From positions 570,001-602,000 of the forward strand of contig NZ_CP007536.1 of the NCBI RefSeq assembly GCF_000698785.1: a stretch of 32,000 bases of DNA, given 5' to 3'. Under the pieces are notes generated by a model. That model was given only the letters and a program-made list of their open reading frames with translations, made no database searches and had not been told where the DNA came from. Made by a program: the position numbers and the translations under genes. The DNA comes from Nitrososphaera viennensis EN76. GTDB taxonomy: Archaea; Thermoproteota; Nitrososphaeria; Nitrososphaerales; Nitrososphaeraceae. Positions 3,201 through 27,316 of the stretch are shown here, one piece after another; position 1 is the stretch's first letter; every line of letters starts with the position of its first letter.

Positions 3201-3339
3201 GTTACGTCATACGTTTAGGCTATCAGGCGATGCGATTAGACGGTGTATGCGCCTGACAGATTTAGTTATGCGTTAATAGTAAAAATGACTTTCTTTCTCT
3301 AAAGACATACTATGCGTCAAAACGGTACTCTTGTACAAT

Positions 3340-3558: not shown

Positions 3559-3699
3559 GCGACATGTATTCTTTTGCGTTTAGGCACGGCAGTTTATTTC
3601 GCCGCAGACTTGAATAATTGTGAACGGTACGTTATTACCGTCGCTTTCGTTTAATATTGCGCGGGCCAGCATACAAGCAATTGTGGTTGACTTTCGGTC

Positions 3700-3800
3700 G
3701 TCACAAGGTTGTTTGACATCATATGCTGGCTCGCATCAAGTCAAAACAGGTTTAGAATAGCCCCTACCCAAGTCGGCGGCTACTGTAGCTTGGTAGGGGC
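3700..3800 (+). repeat. repeat module copy B (same conserved box, 11-bp hairpin with one bulge)
   Basis: ATGCTGGCTCGC at 3723, CAAAACAGGTTTAGAATAGCCCC at 3742-3764. Hairpin arms CCCCTACCCAAG (3761-3772) and CTTGGTAGGGG (3789-3799). Confidence 0.6.
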
Positions 3801-4529
3801 GATTTGCACATACCCTCTAGACCGGCGCGTGCGACGTTGCAGCCATACCCGAGCAATATGTGCGTACTTCTACAATTGTCGAGTTATTATGAATTTCTAA
3901 TACTGTTGTTGTTATTGTTGTTGTTCAAAGCCCCACCTGTGCCGGTTATGCAAAAGCACAGGCGAAGGGCATGACATGGCTTTCACTGGTTTTCGGGGAT
4001 ATGCCTTTCGTCGACTTGCTCAGGCATGGTTGCTGATGTAGTGCCTGACGGTAGACAATCAAAGTAACATTGTCTTTAAGGCTTGCTTACCTGTGAAAAG
4101 TGTATATTGTAATCAGAAATTATGGTCTTTTACCGGTAATTAGCATTACTTTTGTATAATTTCAAATTAGGTCATAGACAATTCTTTTTTTACCCAAAGG
4201 CGACAGAGTTCGGCGATCTAAATTTTGACCCAGACATGATTTATTAAAGAAGTCAGAATTAGATAGCGCCCAAGTCGTGTGATTGTCAAAAAAGGAGGTC
4301 GGGGCTTTGGTACCGCCCCAATGGCCTCTGCCCAGTTTCTGAATCCTCTGTGCCTGCATACCCCTCTGGACCCGTACTTTGTTCTGAACAGTGTTCAAGA
4401 TGCTTCCGGCCGTTGTTTGGCCTGCGACTAGGATGATAAAGGCAGACTAGGTTAGCTTTGACTTTTGCTCTTGTTCGCAGTTGTTGCAGCGAGCGTGTTG
4501 ATTGACGGGGGGGGACGCGCGAATGGCAG

Positions 4530-5000
4530 TCAACTTTTTCCAAAGTCCCAAGTCGAAAAGTAACTTGGAGTAATTTCCAACAGTACAGACTTGCCACTTT
4601 TTACAGTTTCAAGGATGAATTTTGCAGTCGGATGATCTACACTGCCAAGATATTTTGTCATTATCTTTTCAACTATTGACAGGTTATCCTTTGGATTTTC
4701 AGATATCTTTGCTTTCCCTTTTCCTTTTACACCTTTTACAGGCATAACTTCGTCATCGATGCAGAAATAGACTGTGTTTCTTCTTCTCACATTAGCTATT
4801 TTCCTTGAATCGATGTTGGTATTAACATAGATCTTATCGCTCCGAGGTTCGTAGAAAAACCAGACTGGATGCACATTTGGGTCTCCAAGATCATCTACGG
4901 TTCCTAGCCGGCAATTTTGTTTGCTGGCGGAAAGGAAGTTGCGCAGTTCCTGCTCATCCATCGGTGCCCCCATGCCAGGAGTCGCATGGATTATTTTCAT
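4530..5000 (-). CDS. pyridoxamine 5'-phosphate oxidase-like (PPOX / split-barrel flavin or F420-binding) family protein
   Basis: 156 aa. VHPVWFFYE, VYFCIDD, KGVKGKGKAKI and LEITPSYFSTWDF are clearly paralogous to 15595-16047. Confidence 0.8.
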   Translation of the reverse strand: MKIIHATPGMGAPMDEQELRNFLSASKQNCRLGTVDDLGDPNVHPVWFFYEPRSDKIYVNTNIDSRKIANVRRRNTVYFCIDDEVMPVKGVKGKGKAKISENPKDNLSIVEKIMTKYLGSVDHPTAKFILETVKSGKSVLLEITPSYFSTWDFGKS

Positions 5001-5039
5001 TGCAGCATATCACCTAGAAACAAAAGTGGATGTGGTAAA

Positions 5040-6095
5040 TCACGGCTTTGCCTCGAATACGAGATTGAATGGTGTCTGCGTAGCTCTGCGGAACTTTGAG
5101 AATCCTGCTTCCATTACTATATCTCTGGTCCTAGCCTCGCCTGCTTGAGCGCCTAATGCGGGCCCATTCTCGCTTAACGAAGATGGAACGCAGACTACTG
5201 TCGAAACAGAATAGGACAGCCTTCCCAGCGGATTCAGGTTATCCTCTACCTTGTCGTTGGCAAAGGGCTCTACTATCATCCAAGAACCATTTTTCTTCAG
5301 GGTTTGCAGCACGTGCTTGGCAGCTCCGGCAGGGTTACCCATATCGTGGAAGCAATCAAAGAACGTCACCAAGTCATAATCGTCACCGGGATAGTCTGTA
5401 GAGCCTGCAACTTCAAATGTAATATTTTTCAAGCCCTCCTTTTCTGCTTCCTGTCTGGCCCATTCAATCGATGGCCTATGGAAGTCAAAGCCTACGATTT
5501 GTGAGCTAGGGTAAGCTTTAGCCATCAGTATGGTTGAGGCACCGTGACCGCATCCTACGTCGGCAACCTTTGCACCACCATTCTTGAGCTTTGCTTCAAC
5601 AGCGTCTAACGCTGGGATCCAGCTTGAAGTAAGATTTGCAATATAGTTTGGTTTGAAGAACCTCTCTGTGCTTTGAAACAGGTAATGGTGATGGTCTCCC
5701 CATCCAAGTCCTTTACCGGTTTTGAATGCCTCGATAATCTTTTCTTCATCTTTGAAGAGTCCTGTTATTAGCTGATAGCCGCCTGCAATGTACGCCGGAC
5801 TATTCTCGTCTATCAGGGCGACGGCATGTTCTTCCGGTAGCACGTACGTCCCGGAATTAGCGTTGTATGTAACAATCCCGCCGGCAGCCTGAGCGGCAAG
5901 CCATTCTCTCATTATTCTTGGATGAGTACCGGTCTTCCTTGCCAGCTCTTCTGGCGTCAACGGTCCTGCACCGGCCATGGCTTTGAATAAGCCGAGCCTA
6001 TCACCCGCAAAGGTGAGCAAGACGCCCAGAGCCGCGCCCCATTCAGTCGCAGACTTTTCGATGAACTTGTTCAGCTTGGTCTTATCAGCTACCAT
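5040..6095 (-). CDS. class I SAM-dependent methyltransferase with an N-terminal winged-helix/dimerisation domain
   Basis: VADVGCGHGASTILMAKAYP is the SAM-binding motif I, with DLVTFFDCFHDMGNP downstream. The ORF opens at a TTG at 6128, and the first ATG is at 6095. Confidence 0.8.
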   Translation of the reverse strand: MVADKTKLNKFIEKSATEWGAALGVLLTFAGDRLGLFKAMAGAGPLTPEELARKTGTHPRIMREWLAAQAAGGIVTYNANSGTYVLPEEHAVALIDENSPAYIAGGYQLITGLFKDEEKIIEAFKTGKGLGWGDHHHYLFQSTERFFKPNYIANLTSSWIPALDAVEAKLKNGGAKVADVGCGHGASTILMAKAYPSSQIVGFDFHRPSIEWARQEAEKEGLKNITFEVAGSTDYPGDDYDLVTFFDCFHDMGNPAGAAKHVLQTLKKNGSWMIVEPFANDKVEDNLNPLGRLSYSVSTVVCVPSSLSENGPALGAQAGEARTRDIVMEAGFSKFRRATQTPFNLVFEAKP

Positions 6096-6240
6096 TTGTA
6101 TCCAAACCTCCGGAAATTCATGGAACAAAAAATTCGTTTTTTGTATTTAAGCAATTTTCCAGATCGTATCCAGATTGGATGTTAGAACTTCTTGTCTATG
6201 AACTCATTCGGTAGGCCGAACCCTCATTTTTCGAGACTCT

Positions 6241-6263: not shown

Positions 6264-7094
6264 TCATGTTGCCTGCTTTTGCGGAATCCTGTCGACTGCC
6301 AGCAATAGCCCGTACAGTACCGCCTCCGGCCTTGGGGGGCAGCCGGGTATGTACACGTCGACCGGCACTATTTTGTCAATCCCGCCCGTTGTCGCGTATG
6401 TGTCTCCGAATATCCCGCCGCTGCACCCGCACGCGCCGACTGCGACCACGACTTTTGGCTCAGGTGTCGCCTCGTACGTCCTTTTCAGCGCCACTTCCAT
6501 GTTCCTTGACGCGGGGCCGGTGACGAGGAGCACGTCGGCGTGGCGTGGCGACGCGACAAAGTGGATGCCAAACCTCTCGACGTCGTAGATGGGGTTGTTG
6601 AGGGCGGTTATCTCTATCTCGCAGCCGTTGCACGAGCCGGCGTCAACTTCCCGCACCGCAAGCGACCGGCCCAGCACCTTGCCTATCTTCTGCTTCAGTT
6701 CGTTGCCTATTTTTTCAAATGATTCATTCGCAGTCGCTGTTTCGCCAAGCGATTCCACGAGCTCTTCCTTTTTCTTTGCAGGGATGGCAAACGCGCTGTC
6801 AACCTTGAACAGGGCCGGCGCCGCCTCCTCGCACCTGCCGCACAGGAAGCACTTGCCCATGTCTAGCGTTATTTTCGCCGGACCTTTTCCGTCCGCCCAT
6901 ATCTTGATCGCCTTGGACGCGCAGATCTCTTCTGCTTCCATGTAACTTTCCGGGTAAGGTGGCACGTTTGGGACGAGCGAGACCCTGCCGCGATAGCCCG
7001 GCAAGCAATGCATGTCCGATATCGGATCCTTGACGGTCTCGATGCCGTTGCCCATGATATCTTTGCTGGCGTTTGCGCGCTTTATGCCTATCAT
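6264..7094 (-). CDS. fused ferredoxin-like (HycF/NuoI-type) + NuoB/HycG-type small subunit of a group-4-hydrogenase-like (Ehr) complex
   Basis: The N-terminal half has ...EEICASKAI... and GKCFLCGRCEEAAP. The C-terminal half has GSCNGCEIE, ASPRHADVLLVTG, GACGCSGG and IPGCPPRPEA, the NuoB-type 4Fe-4S ligands. Confidence 0.85.
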   Translation of the reverse strand: MIGIKRANASKDIMGNGIETVKDPISDMHCLPGYRGRVSLVPNVPPYPESYMEAEEICASKAIKIWADGKGPAKITLDMGKCFLCGRCEEAAPALFKVDSAFAIPAKKKEELVESLGETATANESFEKIGNELKQKIGKVLGRSLAVREVDAGSCNGCEIEITALNNPIYDVERFGIHFVASPRHADVLLVTGPASRNMEVALKRTYEATPEPKVVVAVGACGCSGGIFGDTYATTGGIDKIVPVDVYIPGCPPRPEAVLYGLLLAVDRIPQKQAT

Positions 7095-8770
7095 AGGTCA
7101 TTCCCCGAGTACGAAAGATCCAGGCTCTTGTTCACCAGCGGAAAGTTCGGCACGATGTCGCTCAGCACCGCCTGCTCTATCGCCGGCCAGTTGAGAAACG
7201 ACGCCGTCCTTACCTTGTAGCGGAAAAGAGAGTCGCGGTCGCTTCCCACCATCACCCAGTGCACCGTCTGGCCCCTGTGCGATTCCGCGCAGCCCAAGGC
7301 GTGGCTGTAAGGCTCTAGCCGCTCCCGCACTTCTGCAGCGACAAGCTCGCCGTCGTGCAGTTCATTCATGACCTGGTTTATCATGCTCGCAGAATTGAGC
7401 ACCTCTTCCACCCTCACCTCAAAGCGCGACAGCGCGTCGCCCTTCCTCTTTTGCATCTCCACCTCGTACTCCATCATGCGCTGCGGCGTGTCGTGGTGCG
7501 CGTCGAGCCGGACAGAATCGTACGCCGCGTACGGGTGGTCGCGCCGGGTGTCAATGTCGATGCCGGCGCACCTTGCGGCTACCCCGACGAGCCCGAGGTC
7601 TGTCGCGACCTGCCTTGATATTATCCCGGTGTTCCGCAGCCTGTCCATCACGGACGACTTGTTACGCAGCATCGATATCACGCGCTGGAAATCTTCAAGC
7701 ACGTGGTTTGTGGTTTTTACGATCACCTGCGCCTTGTCCTCCAGGTCGACGCCGACCCCGCCCACTCTGTTGACTCCGAACAGCAGCCGGCTCCCGGTCA
7801 CCTGCCCGTTCAGCTGCATCATCCTCTCCTTGAGTATGTTAAGGCGCGCCGCGCCGTAGGCAAACCCGACGTCGGTCGACATGCCTGCAAGCGTGCCAAG
7901 GTGGTTGTAAATCCTCTCAAGTTCCGCGCAGGCAGTCCTTGTCGCAAGCGCCTTTTTGGGCACCTTGGCCCTTGCTATCTTCTCCAGCGCCTGGCAGTAC
8001 GCCGTCGAGTTTGCAACTGCCTCGTCACCGGCTATCCGCTCGCTCAGGAGCAGGACCTGGTCAAGAGTCATGCCCTCGGCGAGCTTTTCCGTGCCCTTGT
8101 GCGTGTAGAAAAGGCGCGTCTCGAGGTTAACGATATTCTCGCCAAGGACGCTGAACCGGAAATGCCCCGGCTCTATTATGCCGGCGTGCACAGGGCCAAC
8201 AGGTATTTCGCATATCCCTTCGCCCTCCACCTTTGCAAACCGATACTGCGAGCCATTTGTCCTGCCGGCCTTTGTTCCAGCGGCAAAGTCCTTCCGGAGC
8301 GGATGTACGCCCGCTGGCCACTGCTCGTGCAGCACAAGCGGCCGGGTGTCCGGGTTTCCTTCAGGCACAAGTCCAAACATGTCTTTTATCTCCCTTTCAT
8401 ACAGCGCCGCCGGCGGGATGCGTGAAGAGATGCTTGGAAAGGACGGGGGCGTTCCGGGCTCCGCGTCGTCCTTTATCCCCGCGGTCGCCACGATAAACAC
8501 GTCCTCGCCGTTTTCCTTTGCAAAGACGTACCTGAGCACAAAGCCCCGGCCGGCCTGCCGCTCGTCGCTGCACACCACCGTCGCAAGCCTCGCTTTCAAG
8601 TCGTCGTTTATGCAGTAGCACGCGTCCGGGATGTCCTGCTTGCCTGCGAGAACGACATGGACCTCGTTGCCGTTGAGCACGTAAACAGACCTTGCCTTTC
8701 CGCCCATCCTGCGCAGGATTTCCGTCTTGCATTTTGCAGCGCTGGAATGCTCTACTCCTGCCGACATCAT
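7091..8770 (-). CDS. fused NuoC-NuoD / HycE-type large subunit lacking all four Ni-Fe cysteine ligands
   Basis: IPVGPVHAGIIEPGHFRF is the family signature. ERIAGDEAVANSTAY sits where hydrogenases have ERxCGxCxxxHSxAY. The C-terminus DLSYSGNDL sits where they have DPCxxCxxR. Confidence 0.9.
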   Translation of the reverse strand: MMSAGVEHSSAAKCKTEILRRMGGKARSVYVLNGNEVHVVLAGKQDIPDACYCINDDLKARLATVVCSDERQAGRGFVLRYVFAKENGEDVFIVATAGIKDDAEPGTPPSFPSISSRIPPAALYEREIKDMFGLVPEGNPDTRPLVLHEQWPAGVHPLRKDFAAGTKAGRTNGSQYRFAKVEGEGICEIPVGPVHAGIIEPGHFRFSVLGENIVNLETRLFYTHKGTEKLAEGMTLDQVLLLSERIAGDEAVANSTAYCQALEKIARAKVPKKALATRTACAELERIYNHLGTLAGMSTDVGFAYGAARLNILKERMMQLNGQVTGSRLLFGVNRVGGVGVDLEDKAQVIVKTTNHVLEDFQRVISMLRNKSSVMDRLRNTGIISRQVATDLGLVGVAARCAGIDIDTRRDHPYAAYDSVRLDAHHDTPQRMMEYEVEMQKRKGDALSRFEVRVEEVLNSASMINQVMNELHDGELVAAEVRERLEPYSHALGCAESHRGQTVHWVMVGSDRDSLFRYKVRTASFLNWPAIEQAVLSDIVPNFPLVNKSLDLSYSGNDL

Positions 8771-10297
8771 CTAGCCTGCGGCACCTCCTGTCGTCTGGAA
8801 GACTGCCATGACGTCGTTGGCAAGCGCCTGCAGAGGCTCGGGTATGTAGAATCCAAGCATCACCACGAGCGCGGCCAGGACGAGCATCGGCACGACGGCG
8901 AGCTTGCCCGTGCCGTGCATGGCGGCGTCTTCAGGCATCCTTTTGCCCGGCTCTTTCGGGGCGCCAAAGACCATCCTTACTGTGTGCTTCATAAAGCCGG
9001 CAAATATCACCACTAAAAACGCGATGACAAGCGCGGCAGCGAGGAACTGCCCCGCCCCAAAGCCTGCGCTCAGTATGAGAAACTCGCTTGCAAAGACGTT
9101 GAACGGCGGCATGCCCACTATGGCAAGGCCGCCTATCAGGAACAGGGCGCCCGTCACGGGCATGACCCTTATGATGCCCCGGATCTCGGACATGGCCTTT
9201 GTCTCGTACCTGTGGCTTATCGTGCCGCTGGCAAAGAACATGAGCGGCTTGGCGACTGCGTGGTTTATGATGTGCAAGAGCGCGCCATATATGCCGGCAA
9301 ACCCGCCAAAGCCCATGGCAAGCGCGACGATGCCCATGTGCTCGACGCTGGAATATGCCAGCATGCGCTTCATGTCCTTCTGGAAGTACATCGACGCGGC
9401 CGCGATGCCGACTGACACGACGCCGAGGATTATCATGAGCTGGCTTGGGAACTCGGGCCCCAGAGTTCCTGACGATATTATGTGGAACCGCAGTATGCCG
9501 TATATCGAGCAGTTCAGTAGCACGCCGGAGAGGAGCGCGCTCACCGGCGTGGGGGCCTCGCTGTGCGCGTCCGGCAGCCAGGTATGCATCGGCGCAAGGC
9601 CGGCCTTTGTGCCAAATCCTATCAGGACAAAGATGAACGCAATCTTGACGATGTTCGGGTCAAGCAACTTGGAGTTGGCGACCATGTCCGTCCAGTTCAT
9701 GGCGGAGTCCGGCTCGGCAGAAGTCGCGTTTGCGTTGGTGTAGTAAAAGAACACGGTGCCAAAGAGCGCAAACGACAGGCCGACGGTCGCGATTATCAGG
9801 TACTTCCACGCCGCCTCGATGGCGCTCTCCTTCGTGTAGAGCATTATCAGGAGCACCGAGACGAGGGTCGTGGCCTCTATTGCCACCCACATGGCGCCCA
9901 TATTGTTTGACAGCGGGACGAACAGCATCGTCAGCAAAAAGACGTTGAAGCCCTGGTAATACCGGATGATGCGCCTGTCGTCTACCAGGCCCCGCTCGTA
10001 CTGCTTGCCCATATAGTCCACAGAGTAAATGGCAGACATGCAGCCGACGCCGGCTACGGGGAGCAGCACCAGCGCCCCAAAGGCGTCAAGGTAGAAAAGC
10101 TCGTCAAAGGTAGTTATCTTTTTTTCAGAGATGACGCCTGCCACCAGCGCAGCTGCCTGCACGAGCACCAGGGCCGCAGAGGCCACGGTGGCCATCTCTG
10201 CCACCTTCTTCTTGCGAAAGAGCGTGGGCGCAAGCGCGCCGGCTACGGGCGTCAGGAGCATAGAAATTATCAGTGCACTAGACTCTGCTGCCGCCAT
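8771..10297 (-). CDS. antiporter-like membrane subunit (HyfF / NuoM-N / MrpD family)
   Basis: 508-aa polytopic protein with GFGTKAGLAPMHTWLPDAHSEAP, the hallmark of the family. Abuts the large-subunit gene. Confidence 0.85.
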   Translation of the reverse strand: MAAAESSALIISMLLTPVAGALAPTLFRKKKVAEMATVASAALVLVQAAALVAGVISEKKITTFDELFYLDAFGALVLLPVAGVGCMSAIYSVDYMGKQYERGLVDDRRIIRYYQGFNVFLLTMLFVPLSNNMGAMWVAIEATTLVSVLLIMLYTKESAIEAAWKYLIIATVGLSFALFGTVFFYYTNANATSAEPDSAMNWTDMVANSKLLDPNIVKIAFIFVLIGFGTKAGLAPMHTWLPDAHSEAPTPVSALLSGVLLNCSIYGILRFHIISSGTLGPEFPSQLMIILGVVSVGIAAASMYFQKDMKRMLAYSSVEHMGIVALAMGFGGFAGIYGALLHIINHAVAKPLMFFASGTISHRYETKAMSEIRGIIRVMPVTGALFLIGGLAIVGMPPFNVFASEFLILSAGFGAGQFLAAALVIAFLVVIFAGFMKHTVRMVFGAPKEPGKRMPEDAAMHGTGKLAVVPMLVLAALVVMLGFYIPEPLQALANDVMAVFQTTGGAAG

Positions 10298-10298
10298 G

Positions 10299-10973
10299 CT
10301 AGTCGTCCCTCAGCTTCTCCAGGCTGCCGATGTCCAGCGTGTCAAACGTCTGGCTTATCCTGAACAGCAGTATCGCAGAGATTATGACGCCGACGAGGAT
10401 GTCTGCAAATATCCCTATCTCTATTATCAGCGAGACGCCGTGTGTGAGCGCGGTCGTAAACAGGAAGAGCCCGTTTTCGATTATCAGAAGACCGACCACC
10501 TGGTTCAGCGCCATCCTCCTGCTCACCATGACAAACAGGCCTATGAAGAACAGCGAAACAGACACGGGCAGGTACGTCATTGCCACCCTGTCGAGGTTCG
10601 GCGTCTGGAGCATCTGCTGCGTCAGGGCGTACGAGAGCGCCACGAGGAGCGCAGATATGAGGATTGACATGCGCAGGCCGACGTACGGGTTGGTCTCTAT
10701 CTTGAACTCGTCTTTGATCTTTTTCGTGACCCGCAACAGCACGCGCGGTATCACCACGGCCTTTACCACTAGCGTGAGGGCCGCAACGACATAGATCTCC
10801 CACACGCCGGTAAAGTACGCTATCACCGCGGTGACAGCGGCGAGGACTATGGTCTGGTAGCGATAGGCGCTCAGCCAGTCTGCAAAGCCCCTCCTCACGA
10901 CGACGCCGAATGTCGCTATCAGCAGGCCTGCCGACGAGATTGTCAATATGTCAACCGGCGGCATCATCTCCAC
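10299..10973 (-). CDS. HyfE-like small membrane subunit
   Basis: 224 aa, about 7 TM helices, LLIIENGLFLF motif. GTG start preceded by GAGGAGGAGGTG at 7-nt spacing. Confidence 0.8.
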   Translation of the reverse strand: MEMMPPVDILTISSAGLLIATFGVVVRRGFADWLSAYRYQTIVLAAVTAVIAYFTGVWEIYVVAALTLVVKAVVIPRVLLRVTKKIKDEFKIETNPYVGLRMSILISALLVALSYALTQQMLQTPNLDRVAMTYLPVSVSLFFIGLFVMVSRRMALNQVVGLLIIENGLFLFTTALTHGVSLIIEIGIFADILVGVIISAILLFRISQTFDTLDIGSLEKLRDD

Positions 10974-10995
10974 TGCTACACACCTCCTCCTCTTT

Positions 10996-11940
10996 TCATA
11001 GGTAGTAAAAGATCACTCCCACCATAGAGCTCGCTATTGCCATCACGAGCAAGTCCGGCACGCGGAACAGGCGCCACTTGGCCACCCTCGTCTCCACGTA
11101 CGCTACCAGCATTGCAAGGAGGACGACCTTTGCCAGGAACGCGCCTGCGCCCGCCGCGACTGCCGAGCCGGCATCCAGGCTTGCGGGCATGCCCGCAGGG
11201 ATGAACAGGTTCACCAAGAGCGCCAGAAGTATCATCTGCTTTATCGACTGCGACCACTGGACCATCGCAAGGCTCTTGCCGGAATATTCCAGCACCATCG
11301 CCTCGTGGACCATCGTAAGCTCTAGGTGCGTCGCAGGGTTGTCAAACGGGAGCCTGCCGGTCTCTGCAAGCGTGACTATGAAAAATGCTATCAGGGCAAA
11401 GAGCATGCTTGGCGCCGTGGCAAAGCCGGCCGACCGCGCCGCCGCTCCGACAAGGCTTGACAGGTTCGTTCCTCCCAGCGTGAGCGACACCACGAATATC
11501 GACAGGAACAGCGCCGGCTCGGCAAGCGATGATATCATCATCTCCCGGCTCGTGCCAAGGCCGCTGAACGCGCTTGCGACGTCAAGCCCCGCAAGCATCG
11601 TGAAGAACCTTGCAAGGCCAAACAGCCCGAGCACTACCAGCACGTCGCCGACTGCCCCAAATGGGCTGAAGGGCACAAACGCAGGCACGAACAGCGCCGC
11701 GGTTACCGTCGCGGCCATCATCACCCACGGCGCGCAGCGGAACACCCACGAGCTCTGGTCTGAGACCACCTCGTCTTTTTTCATCAGCTTGGACAGGTCG
11801 TAGTACGGCTGGAGCACGCTTGCACCCACCCTCTTTTGCGTCCTTGCCTTCACCTTCCTCATGACGCCCGTCAAGAGCGGGGCAAGCGCCACGATGGCGG
11901 CTGCCTGCGCCGCGCCGACAGCCACCGAAGAGGCGTCCAT
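10996..11940 (-). CDS. NuoH / HycD (HyfC)-type membrane subunit
   Basis: 314 aa. RKVKARTQKRVGASVLQPYYDLSKLMKKD and PFDNPATHLELTMVHEAMVLEYSG are NuoH-family motifs. Confidence 0.85.
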   Translation of the reverse strand: MDASSVAVGAAQAAAIVALAPLLTGVMRKVKARTQKRVGASVLQPYYDLSKLMKKDEVVSDQSSWVFRCAPWVMMAATVTAALFVPAFVPFSPFGAVGDVLVVLGLFGLARFFTMLAGLDVASAFSGLGTSREMMISSLAEPALFLSIFVVSLTLGGTNLSSLVGAAARSAGFATAPSMLFALIAFFIVTLAETGRLPFDNPATHLELTMVHEAMVLEYSGKSLAMVQWSQSIKQMILLALLVNLFIPAGMPASLDAGSAVAAGAGAFLAKVVLLAMLVAYVETRVAKWRLFRVPDLLVMAIASSMVGVIFYYL

Positions 11941-14006
11941 CAGGGCACCAGCCTTGCCAGCAGCAAAAGGAGTGCAAGAGCTATCATCACGTATAGCAGG
12001 TACGCGTTGACCTTGCCCGTCTGTATACGACGCACCTTGTCGAAAAACGCCACGGTCGCGCTGACCGTGTGCGAGTACAGCCCTTCTTCAAAGACGTCCC
12101 GAGTTTCAGACTCTACGCGCGCCGATTTGACGGCGTACGGGTTTGACGCAGAGTGCCGGTCCTTTGTGACGCTCATGCGCGGCCTGTAGAGCGCCCGAAA
12201 GACGGTGCGGATGGGCTGCGAAAGCGAGCCGGCCGTATACTGCATCCGCGCGTCCAGCGCGCCAAAGCCGCAGTCCCACGTGCCGTACAGCCGCCTCTTG
12301 GTACTGCGCGAGCCTGCGGCAAATGCAAAGCCAATGATTGCCGCCGCCACAGCGCCCATCATTATTGCTATAGCAGGCATGGACAAATTGCTCAACGCCT
12401 CGCCGGCGCGGTACGGCACGGCAAGCGCGTCAAACGGCGACACGCTGAACTGCTGCGGGTCCAGCTCAAACGAAGCGGCCATCATCCCGGTCGCTACAAA
12501 GGGCAGGACGCCAAAGACCACGCACAGCGCCGCGGCTATTCCCATGCCGGCTATCATGGTCTTGGGCGCTTCCTTTGCATGCGCGGCTGCTTCCGAGCGA
12601 GGGCGGGACAGGAAAGTGATGCCAAACATCTTGACAAAAGTGGCAAGCGCTATCCCTGCCGTGAGCGCAAACGCGATGCTCGCAAAGCTGATGGATATTT
12701 GCAGGGCGGTGTTTGGCACCTGGTACGAAGAAAGCAGGGCCTGCATAGTGAGCCACTCGCTCACAAAGCCGTTGAGGGGAGGCAGGCCCGAGATGGCTAT
12801 TGCGCCGACAAGGAAGAGGAGCGCCGTCTGAGGCATCTTTTTTGCCAGCCCGCCCAGCTGCTCCATGTCCTTTGTGTGCGTGCGAAAGAGTATAGAGCCG
12901 GCGCCCATGAAAAGCAGGCTCTTGAAGGCGGCATGGTTGAGCGAGTGGTACATTGCTGCCAAGAGCGCCACCGCCGCAAGGGCCTGCAGGCCAAACGACG
13001 CAAAGGTGACAGAAAGCCCGAGGCCGAGCACGACTATGCCGATGTTTTCTATGGTGCTGTAGGCAAGGGCGCGCTTGATGTCTTTTTCAATGGCGGCATA
13101 GAGCACGCCAATGAGCGCGGACACGGAACCGGCGACGACCATTAGCATGCCCCACCACGCCGAGTCTGGTGAGCCGGGCACCGCAAAGTCAAGCGTGGTG
13201 CGCACGAGGCCATAGATCGCGACCTTTACCATGACTGCGGACATTAGCGCGGACACGTTGCTTGGGGCCGACGGGTGCGCCTGTGGGAGCCAGACGTGCA
13301 TGGGCACGAGGCCGGCCTTTGTGCCAAAGCCGATAAACGCAAGTACGAAAGCGACGTCCTTTATGTACGGGGGCATGGGCGACGCAGGGTCCCTGAAAGA
13401 GTCGAATGACAGGCTGCCAGTATGGAAGTACATCGCAAGGAACGAGCCGGTGATAAACGCCGTGCCAAGGTGAGTCATCACGATGTAGGTCATGCCGGCC
13501 TTGATGTTGCCTTCATTGTCGTGCTCGTAGATGACAAGGAAGAACGACGCAAGCGACATCGCCTCCCAAAAGACCAGGAACGAAAACGCGCTGTCCGACG
13601 CGGTGACCAGGAACATGGAAAGGACAAAGAGGTTGAACAGAAAGCCAAGCGCCCTCTTGCTGCGCTTTTCAGAATATTCGCCTACATAGCCGATGGAGTA
13701 TATCGAGGCTGCGAAAGCGACCGGCCCAATGATTAGCATGAAAAACGCCGCCACGCCATCTACGTGAAACTCGATGCTCAGTGCAGGAACGGGGGCGGCA
13801 AACAGCGGGGAGATGTCAAGCGGCAAGCCAGAAATGGCCACAGAAGCAGACAGCGCGACTATCAGGACCGACCCAAGGGCTGGCGGGGCAAAAGACAGGA
13901 TAGCAGATTTCCTGCCATCCCGGAAGGCAAGCGGCAAGAGCGCGCCGGCTACGAACGAAAGCACGGCCGCTTGAAATAGAGTTGAGTAACCATCTCCAAA
14001 AACCAT
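11940..14006 (-). CDS. antiporter-like membrane subunit (HyfB/HycC / NuoL family)
   Basis: 688-aa polytopic protein with GFGTKAGLVPMHVWLPQAHPSAP. First gene of the operon; its stop overlaps the next start by 1 nt. Confidence 0.85.
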   Translation of the reverse strand: MVFGDGYSTLFQAAVLSFVAGALLPLAFRDGRKSAILSFAPPALGSVLIVALSASVAISGLPLDISPLFAAPVPALSIEFHVDGVAAFFMLIIGPVAFAASIYSIGYVGEYSEKRSKRALGFLFNLFVLSMFLVTASDSAFSFLVFWEAMSLASFFLVIYEHDNEGNIKAGMTYIVMTHLGTAFITGSFLAMYFHTGSLSFDSFRDPASPMPPYIKDVAFVLAFIGFGTKAGLVPMHVWLPQAHPSAPSNVSALMSAVMVKVAIYGLVRTTLDFAVPGSPDSAWWGMLMVVAGSVSALIGVLYAAIEKDIKRALAYSTIENIGIVVLGLGLSVTFASFGLQALAAVALLAAMYHSLNHAAFKSLLFMGAGSILFRTHTKDMEQLGGLAKKMPQTALLFLVGAIAISGLPPLNGFVSEWLTMQALLSSYQVPNTALQISISFASIAFALTAGIALATFVKMFGITFLSRPRSEAAAHAKEAPKTMIAGMGIAAALCVVFGVLPFVATGMMAASFELDPQQFSVSPFDALAVPYRAGEALSNLSMPAIAIMMGAVAAAIIGFAFAAGSRSTKRRLYGTWDCGFGALDARMQYTAGSLSQPIRTVFRALYRPRMSVTKDRHSASNPYAVKSARVESETRDVFEEGLYSHTVSATVAFFDKVRRIQTGKVNAYLLYVMIALALLLLLARLVP

Positions 14007-14124
14007 TCGTTATGACACTTTTTTCCCCGAATAGATGCACTCGACTGCCTTACGTTACGGCAACCGCAGTTTTTGGCAGTCGGCTTTTAAAGATTAGGTC
14101 ACAAATTATGCAATAATTCAGAAT

Positions 14125-14139
14125 TCCGAGATTTTCGGA
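14125..14139. promoter_or_regulatory. inverted repeat TCCGA-N5-TCGGA in the divergent promoter region (candidate operator)
   Basis: Lies between the Ehr operon start (14006) and the regulator start (14182). CTTTAAAA boxes are at 14085-14092 (minus sense) and 14149-14156 (plus sense). Confidence 0.3.
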
Positions 14140-14181
14140 TTTTCAAAAACTTTAAAATGCCGCACACATCAGGTCTCCGGC

Positions 14182-14784
14182 ATGAAGCCCCGGAACATCA
14201 AGACCTACCTGACGCACTTTCCAGTCAAGTCGTACCTCGAAGCCGACATACTTTCAAAGGAGAGCACGTGGCGGATAATGGACTACATCAGGCAGGCAGG
14301 GGCCCAGGGCATCACCGCCGAGGACATCATCGAAAAAGAAAAGATCCCCGCAAGCGTCGTCTATTCTACACTGAAAGAGCTCTATCGCCTGGAGTTTGTC
14401 TTCCTCTACCCGAGGGAAAAAAAGGCCAAAGGCGAGAGGAGCAAGAGGTTCGTGTGCGAAAGGAGCACGTGGGGGAAGTACGGCATCGACGAGGAGTTTG
14501 ACACGCTCCTGAAGGTGAGCGGCCTGCTTGAAAGCATCACGGAAGAAATGCGCGTGCCGGTGATGAAGGCGTTCAGGCACATGTATGAGGAATTCGGCGC
14601 CAGAAAAGAGCTGCAGAAATTCCTCCCCACCAAGCAGACCAACATCTGCCCGAATTGCCAGAGGAGCCACGAGGCGATGGAGTTTTTTTACGCCACGCTT
14701 CTTCGCAGCATCGACCTGATGATAACAGAGTCGGACGAGTTCAAGAAGTTCCTCGTAGAAATGAAGTACGCAAGTGACGATTAG
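14182..14784 (+). CDS. winged-helix transcriptional regulator (ArsR/TrmB-like N-terminus, CxxC-containing C-terminal domain)
   Basis: WRIMDYIRQAGAQGITAEDIIEKEKIPASVVYSTLKELYRLEFV is an HTH plus wing. CPNCQRSHE lies near the C-terminus. Divergent from the Ehr operon. Confidence 0.65.
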   Translation: MKPRNIKTYLTHFPVKSYLEADILSKESTWRIMDYIRQAGAQGITAEDIIEKEKIPASVVYSTLKELYRLEFVFLYPREKKAKGERSKRFVCERSTWGKYGIDEEFDTLLKVSGLLESITEEMRVPVMKAFRHMYEEFGARKELQKFLPTKQTNICPNCQRSHEAMEFFYATLLRSIDLMITESDEFKKFLVEMKYASDD

Positions 14785-15594: not shown

Positions 15595-16047
15595 CTAGTA
15601 TTTCCAAGTCGCCATGTAAAGCGGCGCGATCTCGATGACGCTGTAATTCTTGGCATTTTCAATCAGCATCTTTGCTTCTTGGCTATCTGGAGATCCCAGG
15701 TACCTCATTATGTGTCGGGATATCACCTTTTTCGCATACTCGGGATCGTCTATGACTCGGGCCTTCCCCTTGCCGCGGACCCCATAAGGCGGGCCCTTGT
15801 CGGCCACGTCCACAAGGAAGTAAACGTCAGGATTCTTTTTGAGCGACCGGGCCTTGGCGCCGCCAGCGTAGGTGGTAAGAAAGAATTTCCCATCCTCGTA
15901 GTAGTGCCAGACAGGGTGGACCAGAGGCGTGCCGTCGCGCGCGTCAATCATGGCTATCCGCAGGATGCTGGGCTGATTCAGGAGCTCGGTGACCTCTCCT
16001 TCCTGCATCGGCTTTGCATAGTTGTCGGCAAGCCGAAACTCCATCAT
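15595..16047 (-). CDS. pyridoxamine 5'-phosphate oxidase-like (PPOX / split-barrel) family protein
   Basis: 150 aa. VHPVWHYYE, VYFLVDV, YGVRGKGKARV and IEIAPLYMATWKY make it a paralog of 4530-5000. Confidence 0.8.
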   Translation of the reverse strand: MMEFRLADNYAKPMQEGEVTELLNQPSILRIAMIDARDGTPLVHPVWHYYEDGKFFLTTYAGGAKARSLKKNPDVYFLVDVADKGPPYGVRGKGKARVIDDPEYAKKVISRHIMRYLGSPDSQEAKMLIENAKNYSVIEIAPLYMATWKY

Positions 16048-27195: not shown

Positions 27196-27316
27196 CGGCG
27201 GTTTTCCCTACGAAACAAGGGCACTTGATCTGGAAACAGCGCGCCGGAGGTGCTGGAAACATCTATCCGCAGAGTCCCTTAACTTGACTGCATGCGTAAA
27301 AATCGCCTGAACATAC

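What the first reader, a model, noticed from the sequence alone, without database searches (positions are those of the whole stretch)
6264..14006. Hydrogenase-shaped six-gene membrane complex whose catalytic subunit has lost every Ni-Fe ligand (Ehr-type)
Six tightly packed minus-strand genes reproduce the hyf/hyc order: NuoL-like, NuoH-like, HyfE-like, NuoM/N-like, a fused NuoC-NuoD-like large subunit, and ferredoxin plus NuoB-like. The large subunit keeps the family signature IPVGPVHAGIIEPGHFRF. However, it reads ERIAGDEAVANSTAY where group-4 [NiFe] hydrogenases have ER-x-C-G-x-C-x-x-x-H-S-x-A-Y. It ends ...SLDLSYSGNDL where they have D-P-C-x-x-C-x-x-R. All four cysteines are substituted (A, E, S, G), so Ni-Fe catalysis is excluded. 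No hyp/hycI-like maturation gene, formate dehydrogenase or other electron-input module is visible in the window. This fits the poorly understood 'energy-converting hydrogenase related' (Ehr) class that sits between group-4 hydrogenases and complex I. Its substrate and physiological role are unknown. In an organism of this type it would be an extra ion-translocating module.
Basis: partly seen in the sequence, partly recalled or inferred. Interest (0 to 1): 0.75.

Follow-up and report, generated by a model that had tools for sequence, protein, structure and literature searches.

The report
Nickel-free hydrogenase-like membrane complex (Ehr)
This ammonia-oxidizing soil archaeon carries a well-conserved six-gene membrane complex descended from a hydrogen-producing enzyme that has lost its nickel-iron site but kept its iron-sulfur and ion-pumping parts; this "Ehr" class is already described, including in this group of archaea, and its function is still unknown.

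Summary
Six tightly packed minus-strand genes (6264-14006) encode HyfB-, HyfC/NuoH-, HyfE- and HyfF-like subunits, a fused NuoC-NuoD large subunit, and a fused ferredoxin-like/NuoB subunit.

Aligned to E. coli HycE (PDB 7Z0S), all four Ni-Fe cysteines are replaced (A247, E250, S553, G556). They are ordinary sense codons, and there is no C-terminal processing peptide.

The Ehr interpretation is supported but not new. A 2023 review already states that Nitrososphaera, Nitrosotalea and Nitrosocosmicus carry Ehr complexes lacking the CxxC motifs.

What I add:
- The former active site is the most conserved part of the protein across 31 Cys-less relatives, and dN/dS is 0.07-0.22.
- The NuoB cluster ligands are kept in every complete sequence among 80 loci.
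- All readable archaeal copies have lost exactly the four ligands of one ferredoxin-type cluster and kept the four of the other.
- Both antiporter-like subunits keep their Lys/Glu/His set.
- The quinone-binding His and Tyr of complex I are absent.
- No maturation or electron-input gene lies in the window; one distant HypE-family hit is the only candidate in 80 related loci.

Most likely it is an ion-translocating complex driven by a short Fe-S wire, not by H2 chemistry. Published transcriptomes of related complexes point to a role in acid stress. Function remains unproven.

The parts
11940..14006 (-). HyfB/EhrA-like (NuoL/MrpA-type) antiporter-like membrane subunit, 688 aa
   Evidence: PF00361 E = 8.5e-58. 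NCBIfam NF005086 'hydrogenase 4 subunit B' scores 689.8 bits, above its cutoff of 667. It keeps E148 (TM5), K230 (TM7), K261, H354/H358/K362 (TM8) and E417 (TM12), aligned to E. coli HyfB/NuoL/NuoM. dN/dS is 0.115 vs L001.
10996..11940 (-). HyfC/HycD/NuoH-like membrane subunit linking the peripheral arm to the membrane arm, 314 aa
   Evidence: PF00146 E = 9.7e-47. Nineteen charged, His or Tyr columns are at least 95% conserved in the family. Most are shared with E. coli HyfC/HycD, and several (R37, R132, E141, D200, E207, E218, K271, R290) with NuoH. dN/dS is 0.082.
10299..10973 (-). HyfE/EhrC-like small membrane subunit (NuoK-like C-terminal part), 224 aa, GTG start
   Evidence: NF008556 'hydrogenase 4 membrane subunit' E = 9.5e-29, below the curated cutoff. 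PF00420 covers residues 134-222. Conserved K71, E166 and D191 are shared with E. coli HyfE.
8771..10297 (-). HyfF-like (NuoM/N-type) antiporter-like membrane subunit, 508 aa
   Evidence: PF00361 E = 6e-58. The best NCBIfam hit is HyfF, E = 3.8e-157, below the cutoff. It keeps E141, K231, H342/H346/K350 and E405, the same pattern as E. coli HyfF.
7091..8770 (-). Large subunit (EhrL-like): fused NuoC-like (about residues 44-165) and NuoD/HycE-like (about 186-559) domains, 559 aa, without Ni-Fe ligands
   Evidence: PF00329 plus PF00346. The best solved relative is E. coli HycE 7z0s_E, E = 2.6e-76. There are 120 close homologs with the same motifs. dN/dS is 0.153.
8153..8206 (-). Beta1-beta2 loop of the large subunit (IPVGPVHAGIIEPGHFRF, residues 189-206)
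   Evidence: This is the most conserved stretch among 31 Cys-less relatives (windows 183-207 score 0.88-0.98). It is identical in nearly all clades, including the Cys-bearing Brocadiaceae. It is hydrogenase-like (EPGHF as in HycE), and I199 sits where complex I Nqo4 has the quinone ligand His38.
7997..8041 (-). Former L1 motif (ERIAGDEAVANSTAY, residues 244-258): Cys to A247, Cys to E250, His to N254
   Evidence: Aligned to HycE RVCGICGFAHSTAY. In AOA it reads ERI[AS]GDE[AS]VANSxA[YF]. G248 sits where Nqo4 has the quinone ligand Tyr87. The codons are GCC and GAG.
7094..7132 (-). Former L2 motif and C-terminus (NKSLDLSYSGNDL, residues 547-559): Cys to S553, Cys to G556; no C-terminal extension
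   Evidence: Aligned to HycE DPCYSCTDR plus its 32-residue tail. S553 and G556 are invariant in 31 Cys-less sequences, and these are two of only three columns that separate Cys-less from Cys-bearing relatives. The stop codon follows L559.
6264..7094 (-). Fused HycF/HyfH/NuoI-like ferredoxin domain plus NuoB/HycG-like small subunit (EhrS-like), 276 aa
   Evidence: PF01058 E = 1.3e-35. NF006076 HyfH matches residues 11-109 at E = 3.4e-7. The fusion is present in AOA and in most bacterial relatives. dN/dS is 0.219.
6753..7064 (-). Degenerate ferredoxin-like domain keeping one [4Fe-4S] ligand set: C58 (4th Cys of motif 1) plus C82, C85, C88 (first three Cys of motif 2)
   Evidence: Aligned to E. 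coli HycF CIGCAACVNACP and CIFCGRCEEVCP. The AOA pattern is xxxCCCCx in 33 of 33 readable sequences, while 34 bacterial relatives keep all eight Cys.
6273..6641 (-). NuoB-like domain with the four ligands of the proximal (N2-equivalent) [4Fe-4S] cluster: C155, C158, C222, C252
   Evidence: The motifs SCNGCE, GAC(G)CSGG and PGCPP are retained in every complete sequence among 80 loci.
14182..14784 (+). Divergently transcribed 200-aa putative winged-helix regulator that travels with the operon in AOA
   Evidence: It is found immediately upstream in divergent orientation in at least 11 related AOA loci at 55-94% identity. There is a weak TrmB hit, E = 0.007. C92, C156, C159 and H163 are conserved in at least 90% of 13 sequences. 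A regulatory role is inferred, not shown.
14007..14181 (.). 175-bp intergenic region between the operon and the divergent regulator gene (presumed promoter region)
   Evidence: Assigned by position only. It was not analysed for archaeal promoter elements, which the available promoter scan does not cover.

Best explanation
Identity (near certain): this is an Ehr-type complex. It is a six-subunit membrane complex derived from a Hyf/Hyc-like (HydDB group 4a/4f-like) energy-converting [NiFe] hydrogenase. It cannot bind the Ni-Fe cofactor and is maintained by purifying selection in a Nitrososphaera-type ammonia-oxidizing archaeon.

Mechanism (inferred): the peripheral arm still binds two [4Fe-4S] clusters. 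One is in the degenerate HycF-like domain and one is the NuoB-type cluster. A soluble low-potential carrier, most plausibly ferredoxin, exchanges electrons with the outer cluster. Electrons then pass to the NuoB cluster, which sits next to the remodelled former Ni-Fe pocket (A247, G248, D249, E250, N254, S553, G556 and the invariant beta1-beta2 loop). An acceptor other than protons is handled at that pocket. A membrane quinone is the obvious candidate, but the complex I quinone ligands are absent. Charge and protonation changes at the pocket are relayed through the beta1-beta2 loop and the NuoH-like subunit to the HyfE-like subunit and the two antiporter-like subunits, which move H+ (or Na+) across the membrane.

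Physiological role (inferred): an auxiliary, regulated ion-translocating module. The best available hint is a role in proton extrusion or pmf maintenance under acid or ion stress. It is not H2 metabolism.
For: SHOWN:
- The gene set and order are correct, and the same order holds in all 80 related loci.
- All four Ni-Fe Cys are replaced and there is no C-terminal extension.
- The replacements are conserved: 120 close homologs, and S553/G556 invariant in 31 Cys-less sequences spanning archaea and six or more bacterial phyla.
- The former active-site elements are the most conserved segments of the protein.
- dN/dS is 0.07-0.22 for all six genes.
- The NuoB cluster ligands are kept in every complete sequence, and exactly one ferredoxin-type ligand set is kept in all AOA.
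- The Lys/Glu/His sets of both antiporter-like subunits and the NuoH-like charged residues are intact.
- No HycI, HycH, HypA-D, HyfJ, FocB or NuoE/F/G homolog lies in the window or within about 10 kb in 80 loci (Pfam).

FROM PAPERS:
- Ehr is a recognised class lacking CxxC, reported in Nitrososphaera, Nitrosotalea and Nitrosocosmicus (PMC10432482) and in comammox Nitrospira (PMC10284858; PMC7305129).
- The Geobacter Ehr is made as protein and is more abundant on formate (PMC7894505).
- A six-gene 'group 4f' complex in aerobic Methylocystis is induced log2FC +4.2 to +4.5 at pH 5 with no H2 evolution detected (bioRxiv 10.1101/2025.08.29.672306).
- hyfBCEF is up-regulated at acid pH in an acid-tolerant comammox Nitrospira (PMC13109103).

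The AOA hits carry names of soil, peat, groundwater and acidophile lineages.
Against: - No donor, acceptor, ion or direction is shown for any Ehr complex.
- The complex I quinone ligands are missing: Nqo4 His38 aligns with I199 and Tyr87 with G248.
- The residue replacing the second L1 Cys varies between clades (E, N, S, T, A), which argues against one shared catalytic ligand set.
- The input wire shrinks across the family: two ferredoxin-type clusters in most bacteria, one in AOA, none in Nitrospirota. This could mean electron transfer is being abandoned.
- Fe-S ligands can be conserved for structural reasons only.
- Bacterial neighbours are mostly transporters and stress genes, not redox enzymes, which suits a redox-independent transporter equally well.
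- The acid-induction data come from bacteria. The Methylocystis protein's ligand columns were not checked here, and no expression data for the archaeal complex were found.
- Which of the two ferredoxin-type clusters is next to the NuoB cluster rests on my recollection of the Thermus Nqo9 structure and was not tested here. One search confirms only the order N5-N6a-N6b-N2.
Confidence: 0.6

Rival explanations
1. Redox-independent ion transporter. The complex works like an Mrp-type cation/proton antiporter or proton exporter. The peripheral arm and its Fe-S clusters are kept only as a structural or regulatory cap.
For: The antiporter-like machinery is intact. The electron-input wire is progressively reduced: 8 Cys in most bacteria, 4 Cys in AOA, and no ferredoxin domain in Nitrospirota. 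No partner redox enzyme is encoded nearby in 80 loci. Bacterial neighbours include a P-type cation ATPase, CitMHS/ArsB-type, ABC-2 and SulP transporters, and Usp. Related complexes are induced by acid.
Against: The most conserved parts of the large subunit are the former active-site loop and motifs next to the NuoB cluster, not the membrane interface alone. The NuoB cluster ligands are never lost in any complete sequence. In AOA the four ligands of one ferredoxin-type cluster are strictly kept while the other four are all gone, which looks like selection for a working cluster. Mrp antiporters function without any NuoB/NuoD/NuoH-type module (general knowledge).
Confidence: 0.2
2. The same machine running in reverse. 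The proton motive force from ammonia oxidation drives electrons uphill from menaquinol to a low-potential carrier such as ferredoxin or, via a flavoprotein, F420. This would supply reductant that these aerobes otherwise lack.
For: It is the same anatomy as the best explanation. Ehr is notably present in nitrifiers (AOA; comammox and other Nitrospira), and Cys-bearing relatives occur in anammox Brocadiaceae; these organisms depend on reverse electron flow (physiology from general knowledge). PNPOx-like flavin/F420-type genes lie within 0.4-2.7 kb of the operon in six AOA loci and 3-29 bp from it in four Omnitrophota loci, and two flank it in the window.
Against: No quinone ligands are recognisable. 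Only a minority of AOA lineages carry the operon, so it cannot be their general reductant source. One of the two window PNPOx genes sits in a low-GC island and is probably there by chance. The PNPOx genes are never co-oriented in the operon. Acid induction in bacteria is not predicted by this model.
Confidence: 0.12
3. Still a hydrogenase. H2 chemistry would use another metal site or selenocysteine in place of the missing cysteines.
For: The overall fold family and the hydrogenase-type beta1-beta2 loop (EPGHF) are retained. Sec-containing group 4 variants have been described in silico (title and abstract of PMC13582414).
Against: All four ligand positions are ordinary sense codons for Ala, Glu, Ser and Gly, and there is no in-frame UGA. 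Gly and Ala cannot ligate a metal. No hyp or hycI genes are nearby. The review reports no functional hydrogenase in these AOA genera. No H2 evolution was seen for the related acid-induced complex.
Confidence: 0.01
4. A decaying relic: a former hydrogenase operon on its way to becoming pseudogenes.
For: The catalytic ligands and one Fe-S cluster have been lost.
Against: All six ORFs are intact. dN/dS is 0.07-0.22. The replacement motifs are nearly invariant across genera and phyla. A dedicated regulator is conserved alongside. Related complexes are expressed.
Confidence: 0.01

Closest known systems
Ehr (energy-converting / Ech-hydrogenase related) complexes: Geobacter sulfurreducens GSU0739-45 (EhrA-1, EhrC, EhrL, EhrS...), comammox and other Nitrospira 'hyf' clusters, and the Ehr noted in Nitrosotalea, Nitrososphaera and Nitrosocosmicus
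   Same: It has the same kinds of subunits: NuoL-like, NuoH-like, HyfE-like, a second antiporter-like subunit, and large and small subunits. The large subunit lacks both CxxC motifs. No function has been established. Cys-less relatives share the motifs ER[IV][SA]G... and ...SY[SA]G.D. and the invariant beta1-beta2 loop.
   Different: The archaeal clade forms its own branch (100% bootstrap). It has the D-E...N version of the former L1 motif, shared only with Firmicutes relatives. It has uniquely lost one of the two ferredoxin-type clusters. I did not compare directly with the Geobacter sequences.
E. coli hydrogenase-4 (HyfABCDEFGHI, group 4a) and formate hydrogenlyase hydrogenase-3 (HycBCDEFG; PDB 7Z0S)
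   Same: HycE is the best solved-structure match (E = 2.6e-76). The gene order is hyfB-C-E-F-G-H/I. The HyfB model is met above its cutoff. The antiporter residue patterns are identical to HyfB and HyfF. The beta1-beta2 loop reads EPGHF.
   Different: No Ni-Fe ligands, no C-terminal extension, and no HycI, HycH, HyfJ or Hyp nearby. No HyfA/HycB, no HyfD, and no formate dehydrogenase or FocB. HyfH and HyfI are fused into one protein with one cluster lost.
HydDB group 4f ('Ehf') putative hydrogenases, represented here by Cys-bearing Brocadiaceae/Planctomycetota relatives
   Same: They share the six-gene order, 41-44% identity, an identical beta1-beta2 loop, the absence of a C-terminal extension, and the fused ferredoxin-NuoB subunit. 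The literature places Ehr next to group 4f.
   Different: Those relatives keep all four Cys (ERICGVC..., ELCYSCTDL) and both ferredoxin-type clusters. No curated HydDB classification could be run here, so the 4f label for them is inferred.
Pyrococcus furiosus MBS/Mbx membrane-bound sulfane reductase (PDB 6U8Y)
   Same: It is another respiratory complex of this superfamily without a working Ni-Fe site, combining a NuoB/NuoD-type module with antiporter-like subunits (general knowledge).
   Different: It is a much more distant relative: 60 bits for 6u8y_L versus 260 bits for HycE. Its subunit set is different (Mrp-type module). There is no evidence here for sulfur chemistry.
Respiratory complex I / NDH-1 / Fpo (NuoB, C, D, H, I, L, M, N core)
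   Same: It has homologous NuoB, NuoC, NuoD, NuoH and NuoI-like subunits and antiporter-like subunits, conserved proton-pathway residues, and an N2-equivalent cluster.
   Different: The quinone ligands are absent: Nqo4 His38 aligns with I199 and Tyr87 with G248. It has only two antiporter-like subunits and no NuoA/J as separate genes. Similarity to NuoD is lower than to HycE.

Membership tests
Ehr (energy-converting hydrogenase related) complex | An operon encoding homologs of the group-4 hydrogenase/complex I core: NuoB-like small subunit, NuoD-like large subunit, NuoH-like subunit, and at least one antiporter-like subunit | tested here: met
   Pfam and NCBIfam assignments of all six ORFs. 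The order is conserved in 80 loci.
Ehr (energy-converting hydrogenase related) complex | The large subunit lacks the L1 and L2 CxxC motifs that bind Ni-Fe | tested here: met
   Alignment to HycE 7z0s_E and to E. coli HycE/HyfG shows Cys replaced by A247, E250, S553 and G556. All are sense codons.
Ehr (energy-converting hydrogenase related) complex | It is not complex I: the large subunit also lacks the quinone-binding His and Tyr of NuoD | tested here: met
   An ungapped alignment block to T. thermophilus Nqo4 places His38 opposite I199 and Tyr87 opposite G248. E. coli NuoCD gives the same result.
Ehr (energy-converting hydrogenase related) complex | Phylogenetic placement with recognised Ehr large subunits in a curated hydrogenase tree (HydDB-style) | tested here: inconclusive
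   An NJ tree groups it with Cys-less bacterial relatives and apart from E. coli HycE, HyfG and NuoCD (97% bootstrap). No curated Ehr, Mbx, Ech or Mbh reference set was available.
Functional group 4 [NiFe] hydrogenase (Hyf/Hyc/Ech/Mbh type) | Four Cys ligands in L1 (RxCGxCxxxH) and L2 (DPCxxCxxR/H) | tested here: not met
Functional group 4 [NiFe] hydrogenase (Hyf/Hyc/Ech/Mbh type) | Hyp maturation machinery and, for Hyc/Hyf types, an endopeptidase plus a cleavable C-terminal extension | tested here: not met
   There is no extension (stop after L559). No HypA-E, HycI, HycH or HyfJ homolog occurs in the 32-kb window. A genome-wide search for hyp genes was not possible with these tools.
Functional group 4 [NiFe] hydrogenase (Hyf/Hyc/Ech/Mbh type) | Proximal [4Fe-4S] cluster in the small subunit | tested here: met
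   C155, C158, C222 and C252 are conserved in all complete sequences.
E. coli-type hydrogenase-4 membrane subunit HyfB (NCBIfam NF005086, equivalog) | Whole-protein score above the curated cutoff | tested here: met
   689.8 bits vs a cutoff of 667. The HyfF and HyfE models match but fall below their cutoffs (524 vs 610; 100.8 vs 136).
Respiratory complex I (NADH/ferredoxin:quinone oxidoreductase) | Quinone-binding His and Tyr in NuoD, plus three antiporter-like subunits with NuoA/J/K | tested here: not met
   His38 and Tyr87 equivalents are I199 and G248. There are only two antiporter-like subunits and a HyfE-like protein.
2x[4Fe-4S] ferredoxin-type subunit (HycF/HyfH/NuoI) | Two complete CxxCxxCxxxCP motifs (eight Cys) | tested here: not met
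   Only C58, C82, C85 and C88 remain. The pattern is xxxCCCCx in all readable AOA sequences, whereas 34 bacterial relatives keep all eight.
Mrp-type cation/proton antiporter | MrpA/D-like subunits with conserved Lys/Glu, together with MrpB, C, E, F and G, and no redox module | tested here: not met
   MrpA/D-like subunits with intact Lys/Glu are present. However, a NuoB/NuoC/NuoD/NuoH module is present, and the six operon proteins and the 30 other window ORFs scanned gave no Mrp-specific family hit.

The most novel reading that the evidence does not exclude
The complex may not be a conventional oxidoreductase. It could be an energy-coupled acid-base device for low-pH and inorganic-carbon stress, analogous to cyanobacterial NDH-1MS/CupA and to DabAB. 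In this reading the remodelled, strongly conserved former Ni-Fe pocket and its old gas channel would carry out vectorial proton removal, for example CO2 hydration to bicarbonate, with the proton carried away by the antiporter-like subunits. Four observations would be tied together. First, related complexes are induced at acid pH in aerobes without H2 release. Second, dabA-dabB lies directly upstream of the operon, on the same strand, in five Planctomycetota/Brocadiaceae loci, 86 bp upstream in L040. Third, a SulP-STAS anion transporter is inserted inside the operon in Bacteroidota/Ignavibacteria. Fourth, the operon is found in soil, peat, groundwater and acidophilic ammonia oxidizers, which fix bicarbonate. 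The evidence is thin. There are only two independent gene-linkage events, both in bacteria. No carbonic-anhydrase-type, SulP or DabA family was recurrent among the AOA flanking ORFs. No metal site is recognisable.
Probability: 0.07. Interest if true: 0.85.

Novelty: already known. Interest (0 to 1): 0.33.

Why it matters
Ehr complexes are widespread in nitrifiers, metal reducers and many uncultured phyla, with Cys-bearing relatives in anammox bacteria, and nobody knows what they do. In ammonia-oxidizing archaea an extra ion-translocating module could bear on two open problems: how these organisms cope with acid soils, and how they obtain low-potential reductant.

This locus does not open a new question, because the class and its presence in this genus are already published. 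The residue-level picture assembled here does narrow the hypotheses and gives concrete targets for mutagenesis and biochemistry:
- The NuoB-type cluster ligands are universally retained.
- One ferredoxin-type cluster is precisely deleted in all archaeal copies.
- The pump residues are intact.
- The former active site is the most conserved element.
- There are no quinone ligands.
- A conserved dedicated regulator travels with the operon.

Tried and rejected
1. Selenocysteine recoding of the ligand positions: rejected, because the positions are sense codons and the ORF has no internal stop.
2. Pseudogene decay: rejected on dN/dS and motif conservation.
3. Recent horizontal import of the operon, judged from composition: not supported. 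Operon GC3 is 0.72-0.80, like the native-looking neighbours. The low-GC stretch is the adjacent 2571-6128 region.
4. A nearby electron-input or maturation partner: none found by Pfam on 30 window ORFs, by a family census of 291 flanking ORFs, or by phmmer with E. coli references.
5. PNPOx-like flavin/F420-type proteins as a partner: they recur near the operon in AOA and Omnitrophota. However, the independent events are few, the genes are never co-oriented, and one window copy sits in a low-GC island. This remains only a lead.
6. I tried to test whether the acid-induced Methylocystis 'group 4f' protein is Cys-less by searching with the most similar-looking paralog (L069 second copy). Only close Nitrospirota relatives came back, all Cys-less at L2, so the Methylocystis case stays inferred from the quoted 'AARVS' motif.
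7. I tried to confirm from papers which Cys bind N6a and which bind N6b. Only the cluster order was confirmed.
8. N. viennensis copper- and carbon-limitation papers: no mention of this complex.
9. The first tree run timed out and was redone with numpy distances. The support values printed after rerooting were unreliable and were replaced by direct split counts.
10. Structure prediction was not run. The tool returns no coordinates, so the pocket or tunnel question could not have been answered, and fold-level kinship was already clear from sequence.

Full report
**What is in the window.** Positions 6264-14006 hold six minus-strand ORFs. Neighbouring genes overlap or lie at most 22 nt apart.
- 11940-14006: a 688-aa Proton_antipo_M protein. 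It scores above the curated cutoff of the NCBIfam 'hydrogenase 4 subunit B' model (689.8 vs 667 bits).
- 10996-11940: a 314-aa NuoH/HycD-type protein.
- 10299-10973: a 224-aa HyfE-like protein.
- 8771-10297: a 508-aa Proton_antipo_M protein whose best match is HyfF.
- 7091-8770: a 559-aa fusion of a NuoC-like and a NuoD-like domain.
- 6264-7094: a 276-aa protein with a weak HyfH/HycF/NuoI-like N-terminal part and a strong NuoB domain.

This is the hyfB-C-E-F-G-H/I order, without hyfA and hyfD. The window has one tRNA-Arg and no other Rfam hit.

**The key observation holds.** phmmer against all PDB chains gives E. coli HycE (7z0s_E) as the best hit (E = 2.6e-76, 260 bits). It is followed by P. 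furiosus MbhL (140 bits), complex I NuoD subunits (about 96-118 bits) and MbsL (60 bits).

In that alignment HycE RVCGICGFAHSTAY pairs with RIAGDEAVANSTAY, and DPCYSCTD pairs with DLSYSGND. The four Ni-Fe cysteines are therefore A247, E250, S553 and G556, and the conserved His is N254. The codons are GCC, GAG, TCG and GGG. The ORF has no internal stop, and TGA follows L559 directly. This excludes selenocysteine, and there is no C-terminal peptide for a HycI-type protease. A MAFFT alignment with E. coli HycE, HyfG and NuoCD gives the same columns.

The same ungapped block against T. thermophilus Nqo4 puts the quinone ligands His38 and Tyr87 opposite I199 and G248. The site is therefore not of the complex I type either.

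**Organism and relatives.** The closest genomic relatives are ammonia-oxidizing archaea:
- Ca. Nitrososphaera sp. FF02: 85% identity.
- N. evergladensis: 75%.
- Nitrosotenuis: about 62%.
- Nitrosotalea devanaterra: 60%.
- A second paralog class in Nitrososphaeraceae: about 51%.

Bacterial relatives (Brocadiaceae, Omnitrophota, Nitrospirota, Clostridia/Bacillota, Bacteroidota, Acidobacteriota) and a Methanoperedens MAG follow at 40-46%. The six-gene order is the same in all 80 loci.

**It is conserved, not decaying.** Among the 120 closest homologs the C-terminus NKS[LF]DLSY[SA]GNDL and the motif ERI[AS]GDE[AS]VANSxA[YF] are nearly invariant.

Across 31 Cys-less sequences from archaea and bacteria, the most conserved 12-residue windows are the beta1-beta2 loop (183-207; 0.88-0.98) and the former L2 motif (547-558; 0.87). 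The former L1 motif scores 0.75. S553 and G556 are invariant. With column 217, they are the only columns that cleanly separate Cys-less from Cys-bearing relatives.

dN/dS against the closest relative is 0.07-0.22 for each of the six genes. The former active site is thus the most constrained part of the protein.

**Family structure.** Brocadiaceae/Planctomycetota relatives keep all four Cys (ERICGVC..., ELCYSCTDL), also without a C-terminal extension. All other clades are Cys-less, with Ser/Ala, a variable residue (E, N, S, T, A), Ser and Gly at the four positions.

In a bootstrapped NJ tree:
- The archaeal sequences, paralogs included, are monophyletic (100%).
- They group weakly with Firmicutes (60%), with which they share the D-E...N motif.
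- The Cys-bearing Brocadiaceae group with Cys-less Nitrospirota (81%).
- The whole set is separate from E. coli HycE, HyfG and NuoCD (97%).

This hints at more than one loss of the ligands. An NJ tree without curated references is not decisive.

**Iron-sulfur clusters.** The NuoB-type ligands (C155, C158, C222, C252) are present in every complete sequence of the 80 loci.

In the HycF-like domain, 34 bacterial relatives keep both CxxCxxCxxxCP motifs. Ten Nitrospirota-type sequences have no ferredoxin domain at all. All 33 readable archaeal sequences show the pattern xxxCCCCx: the first three Cys of motif 1 and the last Cys of motif 2 are gone, and C58, C82, C85 and C88 remain.

By standard 2x[4Fe-4S] ferredoxin topology, that is the clean deletion of one cluster and strict retention of the other. 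From my recollection of the Thermus Nqo9 structure, the retained set corresponds to N6b, the cluster next to N2. I could confirm only the order N5-N6a-N6b-N2 from a paper, so this mapping is marked as recalled.

The archaeal complex should therefore carry a two-cluster wire.

**Membrane part.**
- Both antiporter-like subunits keep the canonical set. This is TM5 Glu, TM7 Lys, TM8 His/His/Lys and TM12 Glu: E148, K230, H354, H358, K362 and E417 in one subunit, and E141, K231, H342, H346, K350 and E405 in the other.
- The pattern matches E. coli HyfB and HyfF.
- The NuoH-like subunit keeps 19 conserved charged, His or Tyr columns. Most are shared with HyfC/HycD and several with NuoH.
- The HyfE-like subunit keeps K71, E166 and D191.

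**Context.**
- Pfam scans of 30 other window ORFs found methyltransferases, two PNPOx-like proteins, an ABC-2 transporter, hydrolases, a solute-binding protein and a cupredoxin-wHTH protein. No hydrogenase maturation, formate or NADH module was found.
- phmmer with E. coli HycI, HycH, HypA-E, HyfJ, FocB and NuoE/F/G against every ORF of the window and the 80 loci found nothing, apart from one HypE-family hit more than 8 kb away in a Bacillota locus.
- The one neighbour that travels with the operon in archaea is the divergently transcribed 200-aa gene at 14182-14784. It has a weak TrmB hit and conserved C92, C156, C159 and H163.
- Recurrent bacterial neighbours are mostly transporters and stress genes. 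dabA plus a NuoL-like dabB lie directly upstream, on the same strand, in five Planctomycetota/Brocadiaceae loci. A SulP-STAS-EIIA transporter is inserted inside the operon in Bacteroidota/Ignavibacteria. Others are a P-type cation ATPase, CitMHS/ArsB-type and ABC-2 transporters, Usp, rubrerythrin, and lysyl-PG synthase with a GNAT.

**What is already known.** A 2023 review states that some Nitrosotalea, Nitrososphaera and Nitrosocosmicus genomes contain genes homologous to group 4a hydrogenases, termed Ehr. It says they lack the CxxC motif and have an unknown role (PMC10432482). Earlier Nitrosotalea papers simply listed a 'Ni-Fe hydrogenase'.

Ehr without CxxC is also described in comammox Nitrospira (PMC10284858; PMC7305129), in Margulisbacteria and relatives, where an FDH-Ehr idea was proposed (PMC6349859), and in Geobacter. 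In Geobacter all subunits are detected and are more abundant on formate (PMC7894505).

Two recent transcriptome studies are relevant. All group 4f 'ehf' genes of aerobic Methylocystis sumavensis rise log2FC +4.2 to +4.5 at pH 5, with no H2 evolution detected. The quoted motif 'AARVS' suggests a Ser at the first L1 Cys position. In an acid-tolerant comammox Nitrospira, hyfBCEF is reported as up-regulated under acid conditions. The Nitrospira-type clade I sampled is Cys-less at L2 in 120 of 120 sequences.

**How it most likely works.**

Shown:
- The complex cannot bind Ni-Fe.
- It keeps ligands for two [4Fe-4S] clusters.
- It keeps the hydrogenase-type coupling loop.
- It keeps the NuoH-like charged residues and two complete antiporter-type residue sets.
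- It is under purifying selection.

Inferred:
- Electrons from a soluble low-potential carrier enter at the outer cluster.
- They reach the NuoB cluster and then an acceptor other than protons at the remodelled pocket.
- The resulting charge or protonation change drives H+ or Na+ translocation.

I put the identity as Ehr at about 0.95, and this redox-coupled mechanism at about 0.4-0.45. The main rival is a redox-independent transporter whose clusters are structural (about 0.2). It is favoured by the shrinking input wire and by the transporter-rich neighbourhoods. It is disfavoured by the extreme conservation of the pocket and by the universal retention of the NuoB cluster ligands. Reverse operation, with pmf driving reduction of ferredoxin or F420, is a variant (about 0.12).

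A physiological link to acid stress is the best current hint. It rests on bacterial transcriptomes and on the habitat names of the archaeal hits, not on any archaeal experiment.

**Verdict.** The feature belongs to a known class that is already reported for this genus, so its novelty is low. The open question of what Ehr does remains interesting. The residue-level findings here sharpen that question but do not answer it. These are the one-cluster ferredoxin domain in all archaeal copies, the conserved pocket, the absent quinone ligands, the conserved regulator, and the DabAB and SulP linkages in bacteria.

Noticed in passing
window 14182-14784 (+), and the matching upstream genes in L001, L004, L006, L009-L011, L013, L014, L021, L022, L037: A 200-aa protein with no Pfam family above threshold (weak TrmB winged-helix hit) is conserved at 55-94% identity, divergently transcribed from the operon, across several AOA genera. 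C92, C156-x2-C159 and H163 are conserved in at least 90% of sequences. This could be a structural zinc site or a metal/redox sensor.
   Followed up: partly
L031 10001-11770, L033 6796-8514, L032 8194-9750 (L002 and L031 come from the same MAG): Some Nitrososphaeraceae carry a second, divergent copy of the whole operon (about 51% identity). In L031 and L033 the otherwise invariant loop reads GPVYAGITEPAHFRL (His to Tyr) and the C-terminus reads DLSSAGNDL.
   Followed up: partly
L040 34-4680; also L052, L072, L075, L049 (Planctomycetota/Brocadiaceae): dabA (PF10070, E about 1e-196) and a NuoL-like dabB sit directly upstream of the Cys-bearing version of the operon on the same strand; the gap is 86 bp in L040. 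This links an energy-coupled inorganic-carbon pump to a hydrogenase-like complex. The one literature search run returned no paper describing this arrangement.
   Followed up: partly
L078 11566-13716, L080 11567-13726 (Bacteroidota/Ignavibacteria): A 720-aa SulP (Sulfate_transp) + STAS + PTS-EIIA2 anion transporter gene is inserted inside the operon, between the large-subunit gene and the ferredoxin-NuoB gene.
   Followed up: no
L075 11529-11996, L040 11561-11962 and four other Brocadiaceae/Planctomycetota loci: A PD-(D/E)XK nuclease family gene (PF13366, E = 1e-38) is inserted between the large-subunit gene and the ferredoxin-NuoB gene.
   Followed up: no
L069 4710-12137 and 12141-19864 (Nitrospirota): Two complete Cys-less operons of different subtypes lie in tandem on the same strand. 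Both have a NuoB-only small subunit with no ferredoxin domain. The second subtype is abundant in Nitrospiraceae (120 close homologs).
   Followed up: partly
window 4530-5000 (-) and 15595-16047 (-); L015, L018, L023, L024, L027, L028; L050, L056, L065, L074: PNPOx-like split-barrel (flavin/F420-type) genes recur near the operon. Two are in the window. Six AOA loci have one 0.4-2.7 kb upstream. Four Omnitrophota loci have one 3-29 bp downstream in convergent orientation. This could be chance in a paralog-rich family.
   Followed up: partly
window 2571-6128: A lower-GC stretch lies next to tRNA-Arg (2495-2570). It comprises about 2 kb with no ORF of 110 aa or more (GC 0.47), then a wHTH-methyltransferase (GC3 0.50) and PNPOx#1 (GC3 0.39), against GC3 of 0.72-0.80 in the operon. 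It may be an integrated or decayed element. A 28-nt direct repeat occurs at 3144-3171 and 3742-3769 (93% identity).
   Followed up: partly
window 28641-30281 (-): A 546-aa protein combines an N-terminal cupredoxin-like domain (residues 53-150) with a C-terminal MarR/IclR-type winged-helix domain (488-531). This is an unusual pairing of a copper-protein fold with a DNA-binding domain.
   Followed up: no
window 27208-28290 (-) and 27317-28570 (+): Two long ORFs (360 and 417 aa) overlap almost completely on opposite strands. Only the plus-strand one has weak domain hits (MG2, E = 1.5e-6), so the minus-strand ORF is probably spurious.
   Followed up: no
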